DNA of 64,000 bases from Chrysomallon squamiferum (taxonomy: Eukaryota > Animalia > Mollusca). Position 1 is the first letter of the stretch. Every line of letters starts with the position of its first letter. The notes beneath the pieces were generated by a model that saw only the letters and a program-made list of their open reading frames with translations, was not told the DNA's origin and ran no database searches. A program made the translations under genes and the position numbers. Where the stretch lies: contig CM022665.1 of assembly GCA_012295275.1 (NCBI GenBank), positions 40,238,001 to 40,302,000 of the forward strand. Direction: 5' to 3'. Shown piece after piece: positions 18,149 through 62,320 of this stretch.

Positions 18149-38822
<20,674 letters not shown>

Positions 38823-42460: not shown

Positions 42461-42673
42461 AAAAAATAACATAACATAATAAAAAATATATAGTTATGCT
42501 CATTATTTTATTGTATTATTTTACAACACATCATCATTGACATTATTTTTTTTTTTTTTTTTTTTTTTTTTGTTTTTTTTCTGCGAAATAAAACTTTCGT
42601 TTTCGTTAAGAATGATAATATAAAGTTAGGACGCTATACGTCGTAAAGGTTCTTCGTTTTTTTATTATTTGTT

Positions 42674-43001
42674 TCAGTGGAAGGGAGTCTTCTGTGAGTC
42701 TTCTGTGTATCTGACAACAGAGTCTAAAATACCACTGCATGTCTGAGCGTGTTTTATTATCTTCCTTTTTAAATTATCTTCTTCACATTTCAGTCGATCT
42801 CTTTGTTCTATTAGCAGTTTTTTTTTCAACTGAAGATTTTCTGCTTTCTGGGAAAAAAAAAAAAAAAATAAAAATAAAATAAATAAATAAAAAATAATAA
42901 TAACAATAAAGTAATAATAAAAAACCCCTCCCAAAAACCCCCAAAATAAACAACAAAACAACCACAACAAAAAACAACAACAACAACAACAATAATAATA
43001 A

Positions 43002-43067
<66 letters not shown>

Positions 43068-43122
43068 TGGTGATAAATGCATATATGTCAGACTGTCTGT
43101 TTGTGTCTGCCTGTTTGTATGA

Positions 43123-43175
<53 letters not shown>

Positions 43176-43180
43176 TATAT

Positions 43181-43220
<40 letters not shown>

Positions 43221-43665
43221 GTGTGTAAATGTGTGTTGTTGTTCGGCAGATCTCTAAATAAACATTTCCGTGTATGCGTTCCTACACGATATGTAATTAA
43301 ATCACGTGTACCTTCTGCAGATTTGACAGTGTCATCGTTTTGTGATATCTGAATTTCTTCGCAGGCATTTGTTTTCTTTGTCCTCGAATTCCAATAACCT
43401 ACGGTAACAGCAACAATAATAACAGAATTAAAAAACATTTGCAATGACACGATCACATTAATTTAATCATAGTCACGAATTCCCTTAGTCACATGCACGT
43501 GCACAGATCTGCTCGGAACAGTAATAATGTTATGATGGTGCACAGTTGTTCGCTAATTTTATAAAAATAAAGACAAAGTTTGGAATTATCTTATGTTTGA
43601 TGTAACTAATAAATGTTACAAATAGATAATAATAATAATGATAATAAATATAATAATAATAATAA

Positions 43666-43696
<31 letters not shown>

Positions 43697-43857
43697 AAGA
43701 AGAAGAAGAAGAAAAGAAGAAGAAGAAGAAGAAGAAGAAAATTAAAACCAGCATCATGCACTAAATAGCACGAGGTTCTTAGCTGTACAGTTCCAACCAA
43801 CTGATAAATTATTTTAGTATGTATGCGTTTATGTGCGTATTTATATCTGTGTATATG

Positions 43858-43925
<68 letters not shown>

Positions 43926-43953
43926 TGTATGTATGTATATGTATGTATGTATG

Positions 43954-43991
<38 letters not shown>

Positions 43992-44302
43992 TGTATCTAT
44001 GTATGTGTATCTATGTATGAGTGTGTATGTATATATGTATGTATACTGTGTATGCATATATGTAGTAAGTATATATGTATATACGATATATGTATTTATG
44101 TATGTATGAATATGTGTATATGTCTATGTATGTATGTATGTACGTATGTGACTATGGACGTGTATTATATGTGTAGATTATGTATGAATTTACATATGTA
44201 TTAATAAGAAGAAAATATACAGCAGTTAACACCCAATAATTACATATAACATAGAACGTGTCTTACCTCGTTGTCAGCGGAAAAACTAGATGATTTAACC
44301 AT
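42674..44302 (-). CDS. Small ATF3/Fos-like leucine-zipper protein with degenerate basic region, paralogue C (98 aa)
   Basis: Exons 44302-44267 ([12 protein letters not shown]|gtaaga), 43398-43312 (tag|[29 protein letters not shown]|gtacac), 42847-42674 (cag|[37 protein letters not shown]...PFH-TGA); all phase 0, no stops or frameshifts. Confidence 0.75.
43815..44200. repeat. (AT)n/(GTAT)n compound microsatellite in bZIP C intron 1
   Basis: Direct reading. Confidence 0.9.
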
Positions 44303-44520
44303 AGTTCTAAAAATAGTCGACTGAGTCCGCGAAGTTTTGTTCAAAAGTCGAGCGCAGTGTTTCGACACTTCTTATAAATACTGTCAAAATACCGGTAACT
44401 ATGATGTGGCAAAAAAGGACAGCAATGACAAATAACTAAAAATATGGCTGTGGTGTATCTATTTTTAGACTCAATATCACGGCAAACAAAAGTTTCGTTT
44501 CCTGTATCAACGTGTGGCTA
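44303..44520 (-). promoter_or_regulatory. Candidate promoter/5' UTR of bZIP C
   Basis: CpG-rich leader, minus-strand TATTTATAA 44380-44372, GGAAACGAAACT (IRF/ETS-IRF-like) 44502-44491. Confidence 0.45.
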
Positions 44521-45435
44521 TTTTTAGATATTCCGCTTTATTAACTATTGTACTTGAAAGTAGAAGTTTTAAAGTTTTGTTGTTGTTCTTTCTTTCTTTC
44601 TTTCTTTCTTTATTTATTTATTTATTTATTTATTTATGAGCAATATTATGTGGTATACTTAATAACAAAACATTTTTATTATATTTATTTCTACCACAAT
44701 ACTGTAAAAGCAACTGACATAATAAATGATTTTACTTTGCAATTTAAATCTGCTGTGATATTAAGTATATAGTATGTATATATGTACGTACGTACGTATG
44801 TATGCATGAGTGAACTAAAGTATGCTTATTTACATAGTAATATACATATATATATATATTTACATATAAATATTAAATGACGTAGCTTTTATTATTAATC
44901 AAAATTGTTCATATCTAGGTATAACATGATAAAAGAAATGTATATCGTATTTTATATAGGTGTTTTTTAAACCTGTTTTTGGGTGTGTTTTTTTGAGTAC
45001 TTGTGACTTCTTACTGGTTAACATTATCAGTTTTATACAGCCTAGATGTAAATATGTGTAGTATTTCAGATAAGTAAGTATGTAAATAATGAATGCTATG
45101 TACTATATTTTAAGATATACTATATATATACGTGACATTTTGCAGGTAAATATGTTTATGTGTGTGTGTGTATGTATGTATGTACGTATGTATTCATGTG
45201 TGCATGTATGTATGTATGTATGTATGCATGCATGTATGCATGTATACATGTATGTATGTATGCATGTACGTGTGTATGTATGCATGTAGGCATGCATGTA
45301 TGTATGTATGTTTAGATGGAATGGAATGGAAAACATTTAACGTGCTAATCAGAGCGAGCTATAGTGAAGCACTATGTTTAGATTCTTGTCATACGTCTTT
45401 ATATTTCTAGTTTTACGTTTGTGTTTTAGTGTGTG

Positions 45436-45666
45436 TTTCCGAGGAATTGTTCTGTAATATTATCATTTTATTATCCTGTATGTTTGTGTCAGTGTAAATA
45501 CAGTATTAGTAACAATGCAACATACAACAAATTGATACGTAAACCATACATCTAAATAAATATATATATATATATTAACAAATAAATCAACATTTTAAAT
45601 CAAGTATATTTTTGTTGTTATTTTATTTATTTTTCTCTTCTTTTTTTTTAATTTTTTTTTTTTTTA

Positions 45667-45715
<49 letters not shown>

Positions 45716-45799
45716 TTTAGTTTTACAAAATTATATTTTTGTTGTTATTTTATTCATTGTTCTCGTCTTTTATTTTTAATTTCTGAGGTTTTTGTTCTG

Positions 45800-45898
<99 letters not shown>

Positions 45899-46392
45899 TT
45901 ATTTATCTGAAAGTTATAGCCAATATAATATGAAAGTGATACTATGGACCCAATCCAAGTCATAATACAAAAGTCGTATTTCTGGGAAATTACGTTTGTT
46001 TCGAAAGTTGAATACAAACTGATCTCATATGTAAAAATAGAAGTTCTATTGTAATGTACCTGTTACCAAGTCAGTTCTGACGTGACTTAAATCAGATATA
46101 CTTACCTGCAGTTTTAAACAGTCTGAAACAAGGTACTAGGCAATTTTAATAATATTTTTCTATTTATCTGATAAGTCTGATATGAACCAAGCTAAGATAA
46201 AAACCAAGAGGGTTATGTTGTTGTGTACCTGTTTTTGTGTTTGTTTTTGTTTTGTACCGTGGCGTTTTTATTTTCTGTTTCTTTTTTTTTTGTTTCTTTT
46301 TTTGTTTTTTGTTTTTTTGTTTCGTGTTCTTTTTTTTTTTTTTTTTTTTCTTTTTTTTCTAGTTATTGTAGGGTTTTGGTGAGGTTTTTATT

Positions 46393-46450
<58 letters not shown>

Positions 46451-47157
46451 TATTATTTTACTATAATTATTTATTTATTTATTCATTTGAAAGTTATAAC
46501 CAATAAAATATGAAACTGATGCTATGAACCCAATCCAGGTGATAATACAAAACTCCTGAAGCGGTATTTCTGAGAAATTCTGTTTGTTTCCTAAGTTTCA
46601 CAAAAGATGAATACAAAATGACCTCATGTGTAAAAATAGCAGTTCTTCTGTAATGATTTCCACGTATTACGGTATCCATCCTGAGTGAGACATATCTCTA
46701 ACGTGACTTAAATCAGATGTACTTACCTGCAGTTTCAAATACACTGTAATAAGGTACCAGGCAATCAGAAACCTACAGGGAATATTTGATCTCTCGTGGA
46801 TGTTCTGCCGGAGGGACCAATAGATGGATGGATGGGTGGATGGAGATGGACAGACGGACGGAATGATGGACGGATGGATGAATTTATAAACTAACGGAGA
46901 GACAGACGGTTACCCGTTTCCGAGGAACTGTTCTGTAATATTATCATTTTATCATCCTGTATGTTTGTGTCCGTGTAAATACAGTGTTAGTAACAAATTG
47001 ATACCTAAACCATACATCTAAAAAATAAATATATATATATATACAAATAAATAAACATTTTAAATCCACACTTATATCACAAAAGTATATTTTTGTTGTT
47101 ATTTTATTTATTTTTCTCTTTTTTTTAATTTCTTTTTTTTTCTTTTAAATAATAATG

Positions 47158-47228
<71 letters not shown>

Positions 47229-48190
47229 TATTATTATTATTATTATTATTATTTTTACTTTTACTGTTGTTGCTAGTATTCTTCTTCTTATTATTGTTGT
47301 TGTTATTGTTTTGCTATTTTATTATTTATTTAATTTGTTGTTGTAATTGTGTCTTTGTTCTGTATTTTAATAATACATATTATTTTTATGTGATATTTTT
47401 CTTTAAGTACGATAAGTCTGATATGAACCAAGCTAAGATAAAAAAAAAAAGCGTTATGTTGTCGTTTAGCTGTTTTTGTGTTTGTTTTGTTTTGTTTCGT
47501 TTTGTTTTGTTTCGTTTCGTTTTTATTTTGTTTCTTTTTTTTTTGGTTCTTATTGTAGGGTTTTGGTGAGGGTTTTTTGTTTTTTTATTATTATTATTAT
47601 TATTGATATTATTATTATTATTATTATTATTATTTTATTATTATTATTATTATTATTATTGTTATTATTATTATTATTTTATTTTATTTTATTTATTTTA
47701 TTTATCAATTTATTTATTTATTTATTTATTTATTTAATTATTTATTTAATTATAAAATATGAAACTGATGCTATGACCCAATCCAAGTGATAATACAAAA
47801 CTCCTGAAACGGTATTTCTGAAAAATGACGTTTGTTTCCTAAGTTTCACAAAAGATGAATACAAAATGACCTCATGTGTAAAAATAGCAGTTCTCCTGTA
47901 ATGATTTCTACGTATTACGGTATCCATCCTGACAGAGACATATCTCTAACGTGACTTAAATCAGATGTACTTACCTGCAGTTTCAAATACACTGTAATAA
48001 GGTACCAGGCAATCAGAAACCTACAGGGAATATTTGATCTCTCGTTATAATTTCTCTCTCGTGGATGTACTGCCGGACGGACTAATGGATAGATGGATGG
48101 ATGGATGGATGGATGGATGGATGGATAAACGGAATGATGGACGAATGGATGAATTTATAAACTTACAGACGGACAGACAGACAGTTATCC
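45436..48190. repeat. Complex local segmental duplication (one block x3, two blocks x2) between bZIP C and B
   Basis: Block ATATGAAA.TGAT.CTATG..CCCAATCCA...TACTTACCTGCAG near 45910, 46490, 47755; block TTTCCGAGGAA.TGTTCTGTAATATTATC near 45436 and 46917; block GATAAGTCTGATATGAACCAAGCTAAG near 46170 and 47411. Confidence 0.9.
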
Positions 48191-49316
48191 GTTAAATATG
48201 TTACCATACGACTAACAGTTATTTGTAAATATCGTTTTGACTTAATAATATTTATACGTTTACTACCGCAATTTGTTTTTAATCTCTCTCTCTCTCTCTC
48301 TCTCTCTCCCCCCGTTCATGTAACAGTAATAATGATAATAGTAATGTTGATGATGATTATGATTATGATGATGATGATAACGATATTAATAATAATGGAG
48401 GTTTAGTTTTGTGGGCATTATAGTCATACTTGTTATTCATTAAGTCTAAAATATTTTTAAAAGTAAAATCGCGATGATTGTTAATTAATTAATAATTAAT
48501 TAATTCGGTCATTCGTTAAAGCAGTTTGCGATCAAATTATTAAAGAAAAGCTATCTTCAGTAATAATAATAATTAAATACAAAAGTAAATACAAAATTAA
48601 ATTCACTTGGAAGTTTAATCTAGGAAATAGTTTGGTATAAATGTATAAATTAAGAAATAGACCAACTCTGATTTTGTTTTTGAGGTAGATGATTATGGAC
48701 TAAATATCGTAAATGGGAATTATAATCGAAAGAGTTATTGGTGTCGTTTTTAGTTTAGTATCAGAAATTTTTAATGTAATAATATTTATTCGTTGTAATT
48801 GTTATCATCTTGTTGAAAGGATATGAAATTATTTATTCATTAACTGTAAGCTGTTATAATTTGTACACACACAAACACACACACACGAAACCCACGTTAT
48901 AATAACGAGAAACCAAATTTTATAATTATTAAAAAAACAACAACATTTAATTGAAATAATTAGTAATAAAACTATAAAAAAACAAAAAAACAATAATATC
49001 GAGCAATGCTTTTCTTCAGCACTAGAAACAAAAATTTACAATATAAGCATTTACATAACAAAACATGCGTCTAACAAAATAAATTCACTAAACATTTAAA
49101 CGAGCGTCACAATCCAGAAATAATTCGATACTCTGAATTTATTATTATTATTATTTTTTGTTTTTTTAAAACATGTTCATTGATGCTGGTTTTTTTGTAT
49201 AAAGTTTCAATAAAACATTTCTCAAAGTATTGTAATTGTGTTCCCAAAAAAGAACGTGATAAGTGATGTTAACAACATCGTCACCGGCCATTACATATTT
49301 CAGTTTCAGTTTCCGA

Positions 49317-53956
<4,640 letters not shown>

Positions 53957-57993: not shown

Positions 57994-58946
57994 TTACAAG
58001 TTCATGTAATCTTTATTTGAATCTTCTTCGGTGACGTTGAAGTCAAACAACTGCTGGAAATGAGGTAAAGCGTTATTAGACAGCCCGCAGTCGAAACCAT
58101 TTGAGAAATTTCCATCGGCCAAAGGAATGACGCCGAGACCGCACTGAGCGGAATCCTCAGGTTTCACTGACCATTCGTTATTTTTGACTGGGACTGTGTA
58201 ATCGTATCCGAAAAACGTACCTTCATCAGTGCAACTTGCAGACGACATGACCTGAAATCCCGCGCTTGCCGGCGGTGATGACGTCGATTCAGAATGATCC
58301 TCTTCCTCGAAGAGATTTGAATTACTTTCAAAAGGAAGTAAAGTCGAACTGTTTATATCTGTAAGAAAATGTTCAAGATTTGCAAGAGCATCACTAGGTA
58401 TACTGAGCTGTCGACAAATCTGTTTCGGTCTTTCTATTATCGGATCGCTGTCATCCTCGTTTCCAGAGCACGTGACCAATGGCTGTTGACCAATGAACTG
58501 GGTTCTTTCAAAACCCGGATCCTTGTCAGCCCAGTTAGAATAAGCGATTCCTTGCTCTTGACCAGTCAAACTGTTCTGTCCTTCAGATGCCGGAATATCC
58601 AGGTTAGCGAAAGGAATCATTTCAGGTTGTTCAGTCTGGCATGCAGCCCGTGGATTTCCTGACTGGCTGAGAAAAACACACTTGTCCGAACGTACGTGTT
58701 TTTGAACGATTTCTTTCAGGGCGGTTTTCTCACGAAGCAGTTGTTTTATCTCTGTCTCAAGTTGCAGGTTCTGGATAGAGTATTTTTGAAGCTGCTGAAA
58801 TTAATAAATTCTTAATCAGTTATTGTAATCGCAATGAATGCTTATTAATGTCTTCACATGCAAGACTATCGTTATGATCATATACAAAAGAAAAATATTC
58901 ATACACAAACACACACACACACACACACACACACATCCACACGTAT

Positions 58947-58997
<51 letters not shown>

Positions 58998-59521
58998 ATG
59001 CACATGCACACATATAAATACACACACAAATAATAGTAATAATAAAATAAATTAAAAATAATAATAATACATACGCACCTTCAGATTTCTTGAAGTAGAC
59101 AATTTCTTTTTCATTCGAAAGCGTCGAGCGGCTTCTCGGTTTTGTTTACGTCGTTTGTCTCGTTTGGCTAAATCTTCATGAGACAGCTGAAATGAAAAAC
59201 CCGGTTAATGAAATCAAATTATATATATATATATACTACTTCTGTTAATACTACTACCTCTACTTCTGCTGCTACTACTACAGGTCCTACATCTACTGTT
59301 AATACTACTTCTACCACTACTATTTTTACTACTACTGCTACTATTAATACTATTAAAGTTACCATTACTGCTTCTACTACTACTACTACTACCACTACTA
59401 CTACTAACTCAACCATTTTTGTACTACTACTAATAGGTAGTATTACCGCTGCTGTTACTACCAATATTATTAAAACTGTTGTTTTAAAAATTATTACTGA
59501 TATTATTATTATTATTATTAT

Positions 59522-59552
<31 letters not shown>

Positions 59553-59837
59553 TGTAGTTGCTGTTAATATTACTGTTGTTATTATTATTATTGTTATCAT
59601 TATTACATTATTATTATTATTATAGTCATTATTATTATCATTAACATTATCATTATTATTATCATATCAATATTATTATTATTATTGTTTATCCTTATTA
59701 TCATTATCATCATCATCATTATTATTATCATTAACATTATCATTATTATTATTATCATTATTATCATTATTATCATCATATCAATATTATTATTATTATT
59801 GTTATCATTATTATCATTATCATCATCATCATCATCA

Positions 59838-59874
<37 letters not shown>

Positions 59875-59989
59875 CCTCATATTTTTTGCATTCTTTAAAT
59901 TCAACTTTTATCTCGCCTTCGCCTCGTTCGCGTCTTTTCGACAAAATGGATGTTTTTAGACTTTCTTTTACTTTCTGTACGACGGCCAT
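57994..59989 (-). CDS. ATF3/Fos-like bZIP transcription factor, paralogue A (~340 aa)
   Basis: Exons 59989-59876 (MAVVQKVKESLKTSILSKRRERGEGEIKVEFKECKKYE), 59186-59079 (LSHEDLAKRDKRRKQNREAARRFRMKKKLSTSRNLK), 58794-57994 (zipper ..LETEIKQLLREKTALKEIVQKHVRSDKC plus acidic Ser/Pro tail); both introns GT-AG, phase 0. Confidence 0.9.
59230..59872. repeat. (ACT)n/(ATT)n/(ATC)n trinucleotide field filling a bZIP A intron
   Basis: Direct reading. Confidence 0.9.
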
Positions 59990-62110: not shown

Positions 62111-62320
62111 CATTTTTTAACCGCTAAAGAGGTCCGAACCGAACAAAATTCACGACGAAACTGGCAAGTCATTGCGGATGTCAGGTCTATTTTTTATACA
62201 CCTTGACACACCAGAGCCGGGATTTTCCAGCTACGTAGTCAGTGACTGACCAATGAAAAAGCAGGAGGGGAATTTTCTTTTACAAAGGAAGTCTGCGAAT
62301 ATTTGATTTCCCGGGAAAAG
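62111..62320 (-). promoter_or_regulatory. Candidate promoter and first exon of bZIP A
   Basis: Minus-strand TATAAAAA 62198-62191; short exon ending ATG|gtatga at 62111; kB-like GGGATTTTCC 62219-62228 and GGGAATTTTC 62268-62277; CCAAT near 62250; ETS-like AGGAAGT near 62286; palindrome TTCCCGGGAA 62308-62317. Confidence 0.65.

What the first reader, a model, noticed from the sequence alone, without database searches (positions are those of the whole stretch)
42674..44302. A 98-aa zipper-only bZIP paralogue: candidate built-in dominant-negative microprotein of an ATF3-like cluster
Seen: three exons splice cleanly (all phase 0, same intron positions as neighbours A and B) into [78 protein letters not shown]... 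The zipper is the best of the three paralogues: Leu at five consecutive heptads ([35 protein letters not shown]) followed by HxxxC as in Fos/ATF3. The basic region is broken: RKQNREAARRFR in A becomes [10 protein letters not shown], a 2-aa deletion that loses the invariant Asn and adds a helix-breaking Pro. The N-terminal KEELR motif and long acidic tail are absent. Established: the N-x7-R motif is required for bZIP base contacts; CHOP/DDIT3 (Pro/Gly in the basic region) and the Id proteins act as dimerisation sinks. Inference: C sequesters A, B or Jun/C-EBP partners; charged 'a' positions (K, R, E) would disfavour homodimers. The supplied ORF track misses this gene.
Basis: partly seen in the sequence, partly recalled or inferred. 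Interest (0 to 1): 0.82.

Follow-up and report, generated by a model that had tools for sequence, protein, structure and literature searches.

The report
Spliced zipper-only ATF3-like decoy gene
Beside two ATF3-like transcription factor genes of what is likely a gastropod mollusc lies a third, spliced copy whose 98-residue reading frame keeps the pairing zipper but has lost key DNA-reading residues, so it likely acts as a built-in brake by pairing with working factors.

Summary
The gene model is right and the gene is transcribed. Public run contigs join exon 2 to exon 3 at the predicted base in 4 of 6 runs (2 studies). Exon 1 joins exon 2 in 2 of 4 runs laid there. C is the third of three tandem bZIP genes; B matches Haliotis ATF3-like proteins. 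C keeps Leu at five d positions plus His, but only 2 of the 5 base-contact residues. Three charged a positions make the zipper imperfect. Its basic flanks suit neighbour A better than Jun (inferred). Rough simulations make long neutral decay unlikely, both located coding variants are synonymous, and the promoter has TATA and three MEF2-type sites. No orthologue was found, so dN/dS could not be computed; protein, dimerisation and repression are untested. Best reading (0.55): a DNA-binding-defective dimer partner that inhibits other bZIPs, in the manner of CHOP, Zhangfei or Id. This is a known strategy in a new, compact, lineage-restricted form.

The parts
44267..44302 (-). Gene C exon 1, coding part (12 codons from the ATG; no likeness to the KEELR exon of A/B). 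The transcript reaches at least about 44325.
   Evidence: (X1 loose end of 59 letters matches exon 1)
43312..43398 (-). Gene C exon 2: degenerate basic region and hinge (29 codons; Asn absent, Pro at the first Ala, second Ala and Arg kept)
43399..43410 (-). 12 intronic bases that align with the first four codons of exon 2 of A, B and Haliotis; inferred remnant of an acceptor shift
   Evidence: inferred
42674..42847 (-). Gene C exon 3: leucine zipper (four Leu d positions, His, Cys), short tail and stop
42575..42673 (-). 3' UTR covered by run contigs; a 2-nt deletion at 42657 in X3, X4 and X5
44373..44380 (-). TATA-like box of gene C
   Evidence: consensus match only
44307..44527 (.). Three identical MEF2-type 10-mers (44307-44316, 44459-44468, 44518-44527) and an ISRE-like 12-mer (44491-44502) around the start of gene C
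   Evidence: motif names recalled; function untested
49317..52145 (-). Neighbour B, 231 aa, exons 52145-51972, 51346-51239, 49730-49317; KEELR exon, intact basic region, acidic tail
   Evidence: splicing not tested with RNA
57994..59989 (-). Neighbour A, 340 aa, exons 59989-59876, 59186-59079, 58794-57994; divergent KEELR-type exon, intact basic region, long acidic tail
   Evidence: splicing not tested with RNA

Best explanation
Gene C is a transcribed, spliced third copy in a tandem cluster of ATF3/Fos-like bZIP genes; its 98-codon frame keeps the leucine zipper but lacks the N-terminal exon, the acidic tail and the invariant Asn, and the protein likely works as a DNA-binding-defective dimer partner that would sequester working bZIP factors. 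Shown: gene structure, splicing, the lesions and the retained heptads. Inferred history: duplication, then loss of the KEELR coding exon with a start codon taken from an upstream exon, then a 12-nt in-frame acceptor shift and a 3-codon deletion in the recognition helix. Inferred mechanism: charged a positions (K, R, E) would disfavour C-C pairs. Lys-rich g/e flanks would favour acidic zippers such as A. A C-containing heterodimer would have only one intact basic arm and one activation tail, so it would bind AP-1/CRE-type sites poorly and lower output. MEF2-type sites suggest stimulus-linked or muscle/nerve expression (untested).
For: Spliced contigs in 4 of 6 runs from 2 studies. Homology to the family: 0 of 4000 shuffles reach C's profile score, and intron 2 is at the same place in A, B and C. 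Basic region identity is 12/16 for A-B but 4/16 for A-C and 5/16 for B-C (Fisher p 0.012 and 0.032), while zipper identity is the same for all pairs, 7-9 of 37. C keeps 2 of the 5 base-contact residues listed in PMC4736632 section 7 and has 7 Lys/Arg where A has 13 and B 12. Five Leu plus His fall in the register seen for FosB. Neutral simulation: losing 7 or more of the 12 A/B-shared basic residues has probability 0.04 at 0.15 substitutions per site and 0.40 at 0.3; keeping exons 2-3 stop-free with all six d residues then has probability 0.019 and 0.0008, before frameshifts. Both located coding variants are synonymous (43345 in X1, 43336 in X6; chance about 0.05). g-e pairs: C-A 4 attractive and 0 repulsive, C-C 2/0, C-B 2/0. 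Promoter: 3 of the window's 4 strict MEF2-type sites lie within 221 bp of C's start. Precedent: CHOP (PMC5712004 passages) and Zhangfei (PMC3796484 passages).
Against: No orthologue in four searches with exon 3 or a profile that included it, so there is no cross-species evidence of constraint. With the best gapped alignment (7/16) the basic-region contrast is not significant (p 0.15). Zipper identity is near saturation for all pairs, so it has little power, and C is a long branch (1.86). Three consecutive charged a positions may make the zipper weak with any partner. Pfam finds no bZIP family in C's exon 2 or exon 3. Contig depth is low (3-18), and 4 of the 6 runs belong to one study. Six further 'other letters' in X2-X5 were not located by the tool, so the variant count is incomplete. 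The simulation assumes C's present d residues are ancestral, picks features after the fact, and ignores that only surviving frames get noticed. C still has a second Ala, the Arg and a basic patch, and CHOP heterodimers do bind a variant site. The looser MEF2 consensus occurs 64 times in the window. No protein-level evidence exists.
Confidence: 0.55

Rival explanations
1. C is a functional heterodimer partner that redirects rather than blocks: the partner reads one half-site and C's residual basic patch grips the backbone or a variant half-site, as CHOP-C/EBP does.
For: The second Ala, the invariant Arg and the Arg-to-first-Leu spacing of 10 are kept (spacing rule in PMC5662769 passages). Seven Lys/Arg remain. 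CHOP, despite Pro and Gly in its basic region, binds a unique site as a heterodimer.
Against: The Asn is deleted rather than substituted, about one helical turn is missing and a Pro sits at the first Ala. The upstream basic residues are replaced by Val, Ile and Gly. The basic patch could be kept for nuclear import alone (inference).
Confidence: 0.2
2. C is a transcribed relic: a duplicate under relaxed or no selection whose frame has survived by chance or because the damage is recent.
For: No orthologue found. Long branch. Loss of an exon, an acceptor and helix residues. Charged a positions. Low contig depth.
Against: All three lesions keep the frame. Simulated survival of frame and d residues is 0.02 or less at the divergence the basic region suggests. 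The first ATG has a good context, the splice sites are used, the promoter motifs are clustered, and both located variants are synonymous.
Confidence: 0.15
3. C encodes a small coiled-coil protein kept for a partner that is not a bZIP, or for a role unrelated to transcription-factor sequestration.
For: The a, e and g positions have moved far from A and B. Exon 3 is predicted to form one long helix, which many partners could use.
Against: The His and Cys after the zipper and the exact bZIP heptad register are kept, which points to a bZIP-type partner.
Confidence: 0.1

Closest known systems
ATF3/Fos-like bZIP factors (Haliotis XP_046559830.1 and XP_067682116.1; Bradybaena BsWGS_15497; FosB)
   Same: B's first exon is 58-60% identical to the Haliotis proteins. 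The Atlas places the Haliotis protein nearest a mollusc bZIP cluster (0.95) and a cluster named ATF-3 (0.93). C shares the heptad register, the five Leu plus His, and intron 2 with its neighbours.
   Different: C lacks the KEELR exon, the Asn, the first Ala and the long tail. Its g/e flanks are Lys-rich, whereas the FosB zipper printed is Glu-rich.
CHOP/DDIT3 (C/EBP family)
   Same: Pro in the basic region, intact zipper, and a described dominant-negative effect by sequestering partners (PMC5712004, passages).
   Different: CHOP is 169 aa with N-terminal regulatory domains, has substitutions rather than a deletion, still binds a variant site as a heterodimer, and belongs to another subfamily.
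Zhangfei/CREBZF/SMILE
   Same: Its basic region lacks the conserved Asn, and it suppresses other bZIPs through its zipper (PMC3796484, passages).
   Different: It is a larger protein with HCF-binding and nuclear-receptor motifs and can homodimerise (PMC9917820, search listing only). No relationship to C was tested.
microProteins (LITTLE ZIPPER in plants; Id proteins in animals)
   Same: Short single-domain proteins derived by domain loss that sequester larger relatives (PMC4807768, passages). C's size and anatomy fit.
   Different: Their targets are HD-ZIP III and bHLH factors (recalled), not bZIPs. Their inhibitory action is proven, C's is not. C keeps a degenerate basic stretch.

Membership tests
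bZIP superfamily (by descent) | Leucine heptad repeat in register with a basic region | tested here: met
   L at +18, +25, +32, +39, +46 and H at +53 from the Asn position; profile score above 4000 of 4000 shuffles
bZIP superfamily (by descent) | Pfam bZIP_1 or bZIP_2 match | tested here: not met
   No family for C exon 2 or exon 3 scanned separately; exon 2 of A and of B both match. The joined protein was not scanned.
DNA-binding bZIP transcription factor | N-x2-A-A-x2-S/C-R base-contact motif | tested here: not met
   Asn absent, first Ala is Pro, Phe at the S/C place (as in A and B); second Ala and Arg kept
ATF3/Fos-like subfamily | Zipper ending in His-x3-Cys with five Leu d positions | tested here: met
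   FosB L/H pattern seen; the Cys as an ATF3/Fos mark is recalled
ATF3/Fos-like subfamily | KEELR-type N-terminal segment | tested here: not met
   Present in B, divergent in A; no remnant near C among tblastn hits seen (output partly cut). The motif as an ATF3 mark is recalled.
ATF3/Fos-like subfamily | Phylogenetic placement with ATF3 rather than Fos | tested here: inconclusive
   Six-sequence tree unresolved, no named ATF3 or Fos rows in it; the Atlas lead concerns the Haliotis relative of B
Dominant-negative microProtein | Short protein with only the interaction domain of a larger relative | tested here: met
   98 aa against 231 and 340 aa; spliced transcript
Dominant-negative microProtein | Physical binding to the full-length relative | not testable with these tools
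   Needs co-IP or biophysics; only charge counting was informative here
Dominant-negative microProtein | Inhibition of the partner's activity | not testable with these tools
   Needs EMSA and reporter assays
Dominant-negative microProtein | Purifying selection on the interaction domain | tested here: inconclusive
   Simulation and two synonymous variants point that way; no orthologue for dN/dS

The most novel reading that the evidence does not exclude
C is a naturally evolved, separately encoded animal bZIP microprotein: an Id-like sink for the AP-1/ATF3 network, born inside an ATF3-like tandem cluster. It lost DNA binding while its zipper flanks were re-charged to prefer its own acidic neighbours, and it has its own MEF2-type promoter, giving the cluster a built-in off switch.
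Probability: 0.3. Interest if true: 0.72.

Novelty: new variant of a known kind. Interest (0 to 1): 0.5.

Why it matters
Dominant-negative bZIPs known from animals (CHOP, Zhangfei) are larger proteins with extra domains. A 98-residue, separately encoded, zipper-retaining copy sitting beside its likely targets would be the bZIP counterpart of Id proteins. The steps of its origin can still be read in the DNA: exon loss, acceptor shift, in-frame deletion. It is small and directly testable. It is also the kind of gene that annotation misses, since it has no Pfam hit and no database record was found, so similar genes may be overlooked elsewhere. The regulatory principle itself is well known and the gene may be confined to one lineage, which limits the surprise.

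Tried and rejected
No whole genome is held, so other paralogues and the true Jun or C/EBP partners could not be examined.

Orthologue searches were empty or unhelpful. Exon 3 against proteins of 101-2000 aa: 0 of 20 candidates. Against 1.84 billion representatives: one hit, a 487-aa repeat protein matching only the post-zipper tail, taken as chance. A five-row profile search ran only on proteins of 390-2000 aa and gave one Bradybaena bZIP. Proteins of 100 aa or less were never searched at the 90% cluster level. Metagenome contigs: 0 of 375 and 0 of 515 pattern matches confirmed.

Run X6 has a different organism label but is near-identical, so it is not an orthologue. X5 has no contig over exon 2; the tool warns that such a hole proves nothing.

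Co-folding of the exon-3 zippers of A and C gave no verdict (score 0.22, mark 0.34); it is used neither for nor against binding. The AlphaFold model of exon 3 (one helix, residues 2-37, pLDDT 94) carries little information.

The tree could not tell whether C came from A or B (AU p 0.39 for B+C, 0.24 for A+C). DNA alignment of exon 3 was no better than codon shuffles (12 and 30 of 300 reach the score). The upstream regions of A, B and C show no alignment above shuffles.

An alternative nearby acceptor was rejected: the next AG upstream is at 43485 and the contigs use 43398. The Atlas gave no usable hit for B exon 1. Alignments A2 and A4 misplaced the zipper exons and were not used.

Four look-ups of earlier findings returned nothing. 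Literature searches for a prior description of this gene or of a mollusc ATF3-like expansion and of basic-less bZIP microproteins listed none; the library holds open-access papers only and no supplements were read.

Full report
Setting. The window is AT-rich, repeat-laden eukaryotic DNA; no whole genome is held. Three bZIP-type genes lie in tandem on the minus strand: A (340 aa), B (231 aa) and C (98 aa), each with three phase-0 coding exons. Exon 2 of A and of B match Pfam bZIP models; C's exons 2 and 3 match none. B's first exon finds two Haliotis proteins at 58-60% identity, and a profile search adds a Bradybaena bZIP with the same N-terminal segment, so the organism is likely a gastropod. 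The Atlas places the Haliotis protein nearest a mollusc bZIP cluster and then a cluster named ATF-3. 'ATF3-like' is therefore a fair working label; ATF3 against Fos was not resolved here.

Is C real? Yes, as a spliced transcript. Six public runs hold exon 3: four on record as RNA from one study, and two of unrecorded kind from two others. Laid on exon 2 (runs X1, X2, X5, X6), contigs of X1, X2 and X6 stop at 43312 with loose ends equal to the start of exon 3. X1 and X6 stop at the acceptor with loose ends equal to the end of exon 1. X2 ends inside exon 2 and X5 does not cover it. Laid on exon 3 (X3, X4, X5, X6), X3 and X6 carry exon 2 as their loose end, X4 stops aligning at the junction, and X5 reads on into the intron, so it is DNA or unspliced RNA. 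The X1 contig spans start to stop. Depth is 3-18 for spliced contigs, and contigs cannot give expression levels. The two coding differences that could be located are both synonymous (43345, 43336). Six other single differences in X2-X5 were not placed by the tool.

Is C a bZIP by descent? A profile of A, B and the three database proteins scores C at 17.5 bits; no plain shuffle (0 of 2000) or heptad-preserving shuffle (0 of 2000) reaches this. Intron 2 falls at the same codon in A, B and C, and the first Leu is ten residues after the invariant Arg, the standard spacing (PMC5662769 passages).

The basic region. Five residues, Asn, Ala, Ala, Ser/Cys and Arg, determine sequence-specific binding, and Asn and Arg are nearly invariant across 896 bZIPs (PMC4736632 section 7). 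C keeps the second Ala and the Arg; Asn is gone and Pro stands at the first Ala. A scan of gap sizes against five relatives favours a 3-codon deletion (score 170; 104 for two codons, 44 for none). That model also accounts for the 21-nt shorter exon: 9 nt deleted plus 12 nt moved into the intron, where the bases still read like the first codons of exon 2 in the relatives and the old AG is now TG. DNA identity alone does not separate one from three codons (95 against 94), so the exact lesion is likely, not certain. Over 16 basic positions A and B share 12 residues; C shares 4 with A and 5 with B ungapped (p 0.012, 0.032), or 7 with B gapped (p 0.15). Hinge and zipper identities are equal for all three pairs.

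The zipper. C has Leu at five d positions, then His and Cys, the register of FosB; A and B each miss two of these six d residues. The a positions are less good: K, R and E in three consecutive heptads. From general coiled-coil knowledge (recalled) this disfavours homodimers and may weaken any dimer. The g/e positions carry five Lys and one Glu. Counting g-e pairs (method as) gives 4 attractive and 0 repulsive for C-A, 2/0 for C-B and C-C, and 2/2 for B-B; A's Lys also faces C's Glu at one a position. This is a crude count without a statistical control. It favours A over a Jun-type partner only if Jun's flanks are basic, which I recall but could not test.

Selection or decay? Without an orthologue I used the basic region as a clock. 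Under neutral substitution, keeping 5 or fewer of the 12 A/B-shared residues has probability 0.006, 0.04, 0.14 and 0.40 at 0.1, 0.15, 0.2 and 0.3 substitutions per site. Keeping exons 2-3 free of stops with all six d residues has probability 0.07, 0.019, 0.007 and 0.0008 at the same distances, before any frameshift. No distance makes both likely. The test assumes the A/B residues and C's d residues are ancestral, chooses features after the fact, and is subject to survivor bias, so it lowers the relic reading without excluding it. The promoter adds modest support: a TATA-like box, three identical MEF2-type 10-mers within 221 bp (3 of 4 strict matches in 64 kb; the total of 4 is what chance gives, the clustering is not) and an ISRE-like site (2 in the window, 0.15 expected). 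The looser MEF2 consensus occurs 64 times, and the motifs were chosen after seeing the sequence.

Mechanism. Shown: structure, splicing, loss of the Asn and of the flanking domains, retention of the heptads. Inferred: translation, nuclear entry through the residual basic patch, heterodimerisation with A or another acidic zipper, and reduced DNA binding and activation by such dimers. I put this sequestration model at 0.55, a CHOP-like change of specificity at 0.2, a transcribed relic at 0.15 and a non-bZIP partner at 0.1.

Comparison. It would work like CHOP (PMC5712004 and PMC5718554, passages), Zhangfei (PMC3796484, passages) and microProteins (PMC4807768, abstract and passages); it belongs to none of those gene families. 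It fails the test for a DNA-binding bZIP and passes the test for bZIP descent. In Ciona each AP-1 member is a single gene (PMC8369891, passages), so a three-gene ATF3-like cluster is itself a lineage feature. Six searches listed no paper on this gene, on a mollusc ATF3-like expansion or on a basic-less animal bZIP microprotein. That library is open-access only, I saw only listings for those hits, and I read no supplements.

Verdict. Observation confirmed and strengthened by RNA evidence; interpretation plausible but unproven. New variant of a known kind; interest 0.5.

Noticed in passing
window 62198-62317 (- strand): The region upstream of gene A has a TATA box (62198), a kB-type 10-mer (62228) and a palindromic GAS/STAT-type site (62317), suggesting immune or stress induction. 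A probable non-coding first exon ends near 62111; B has a likely counterpart ending near 53943. Motif names are recalled and there is no RNA test.
   Followed up: partly
window 45435-48193: Non-coding tandem segmental repeats between B and C, units about 1.25-1.5 kb apart, up to 96% identical over 270 nt. A 69-nt core occurs three times and each copy has a consensus splice-donor-like site. No bZIP remnant among the tblastn hits seen.
   Followed up: partly
window 59079-59186 and 51239-51346: A and B both have Phe where most bZIPs have Ser or Cys before the invariant Arg (Haliotis His, Bradybaena Cys), which may change their DNA specificity. A also lacks Leu at the first two d positions.
   Followed up: no
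window about 18200-24530 (+ strand): Exons of a glycosyl hydrolase family 18 (chitinase-like) gene, Pfam PF00704 at 19107-19457 and 22894-23157, followed by Ser/Gly-rich and Lys-rich frames out to about 36 kb that may be linker exons.
   Followed up: partly
window 42657: Three runs (X3, X4, X5) lack two bases in an A run of C's 3' UTR: an allele or an assembly slip in the window.
   Followed up: no
window 49302-49314: A second ISRE-like site lies just after the stop codon of gene B.
   Followed up: no
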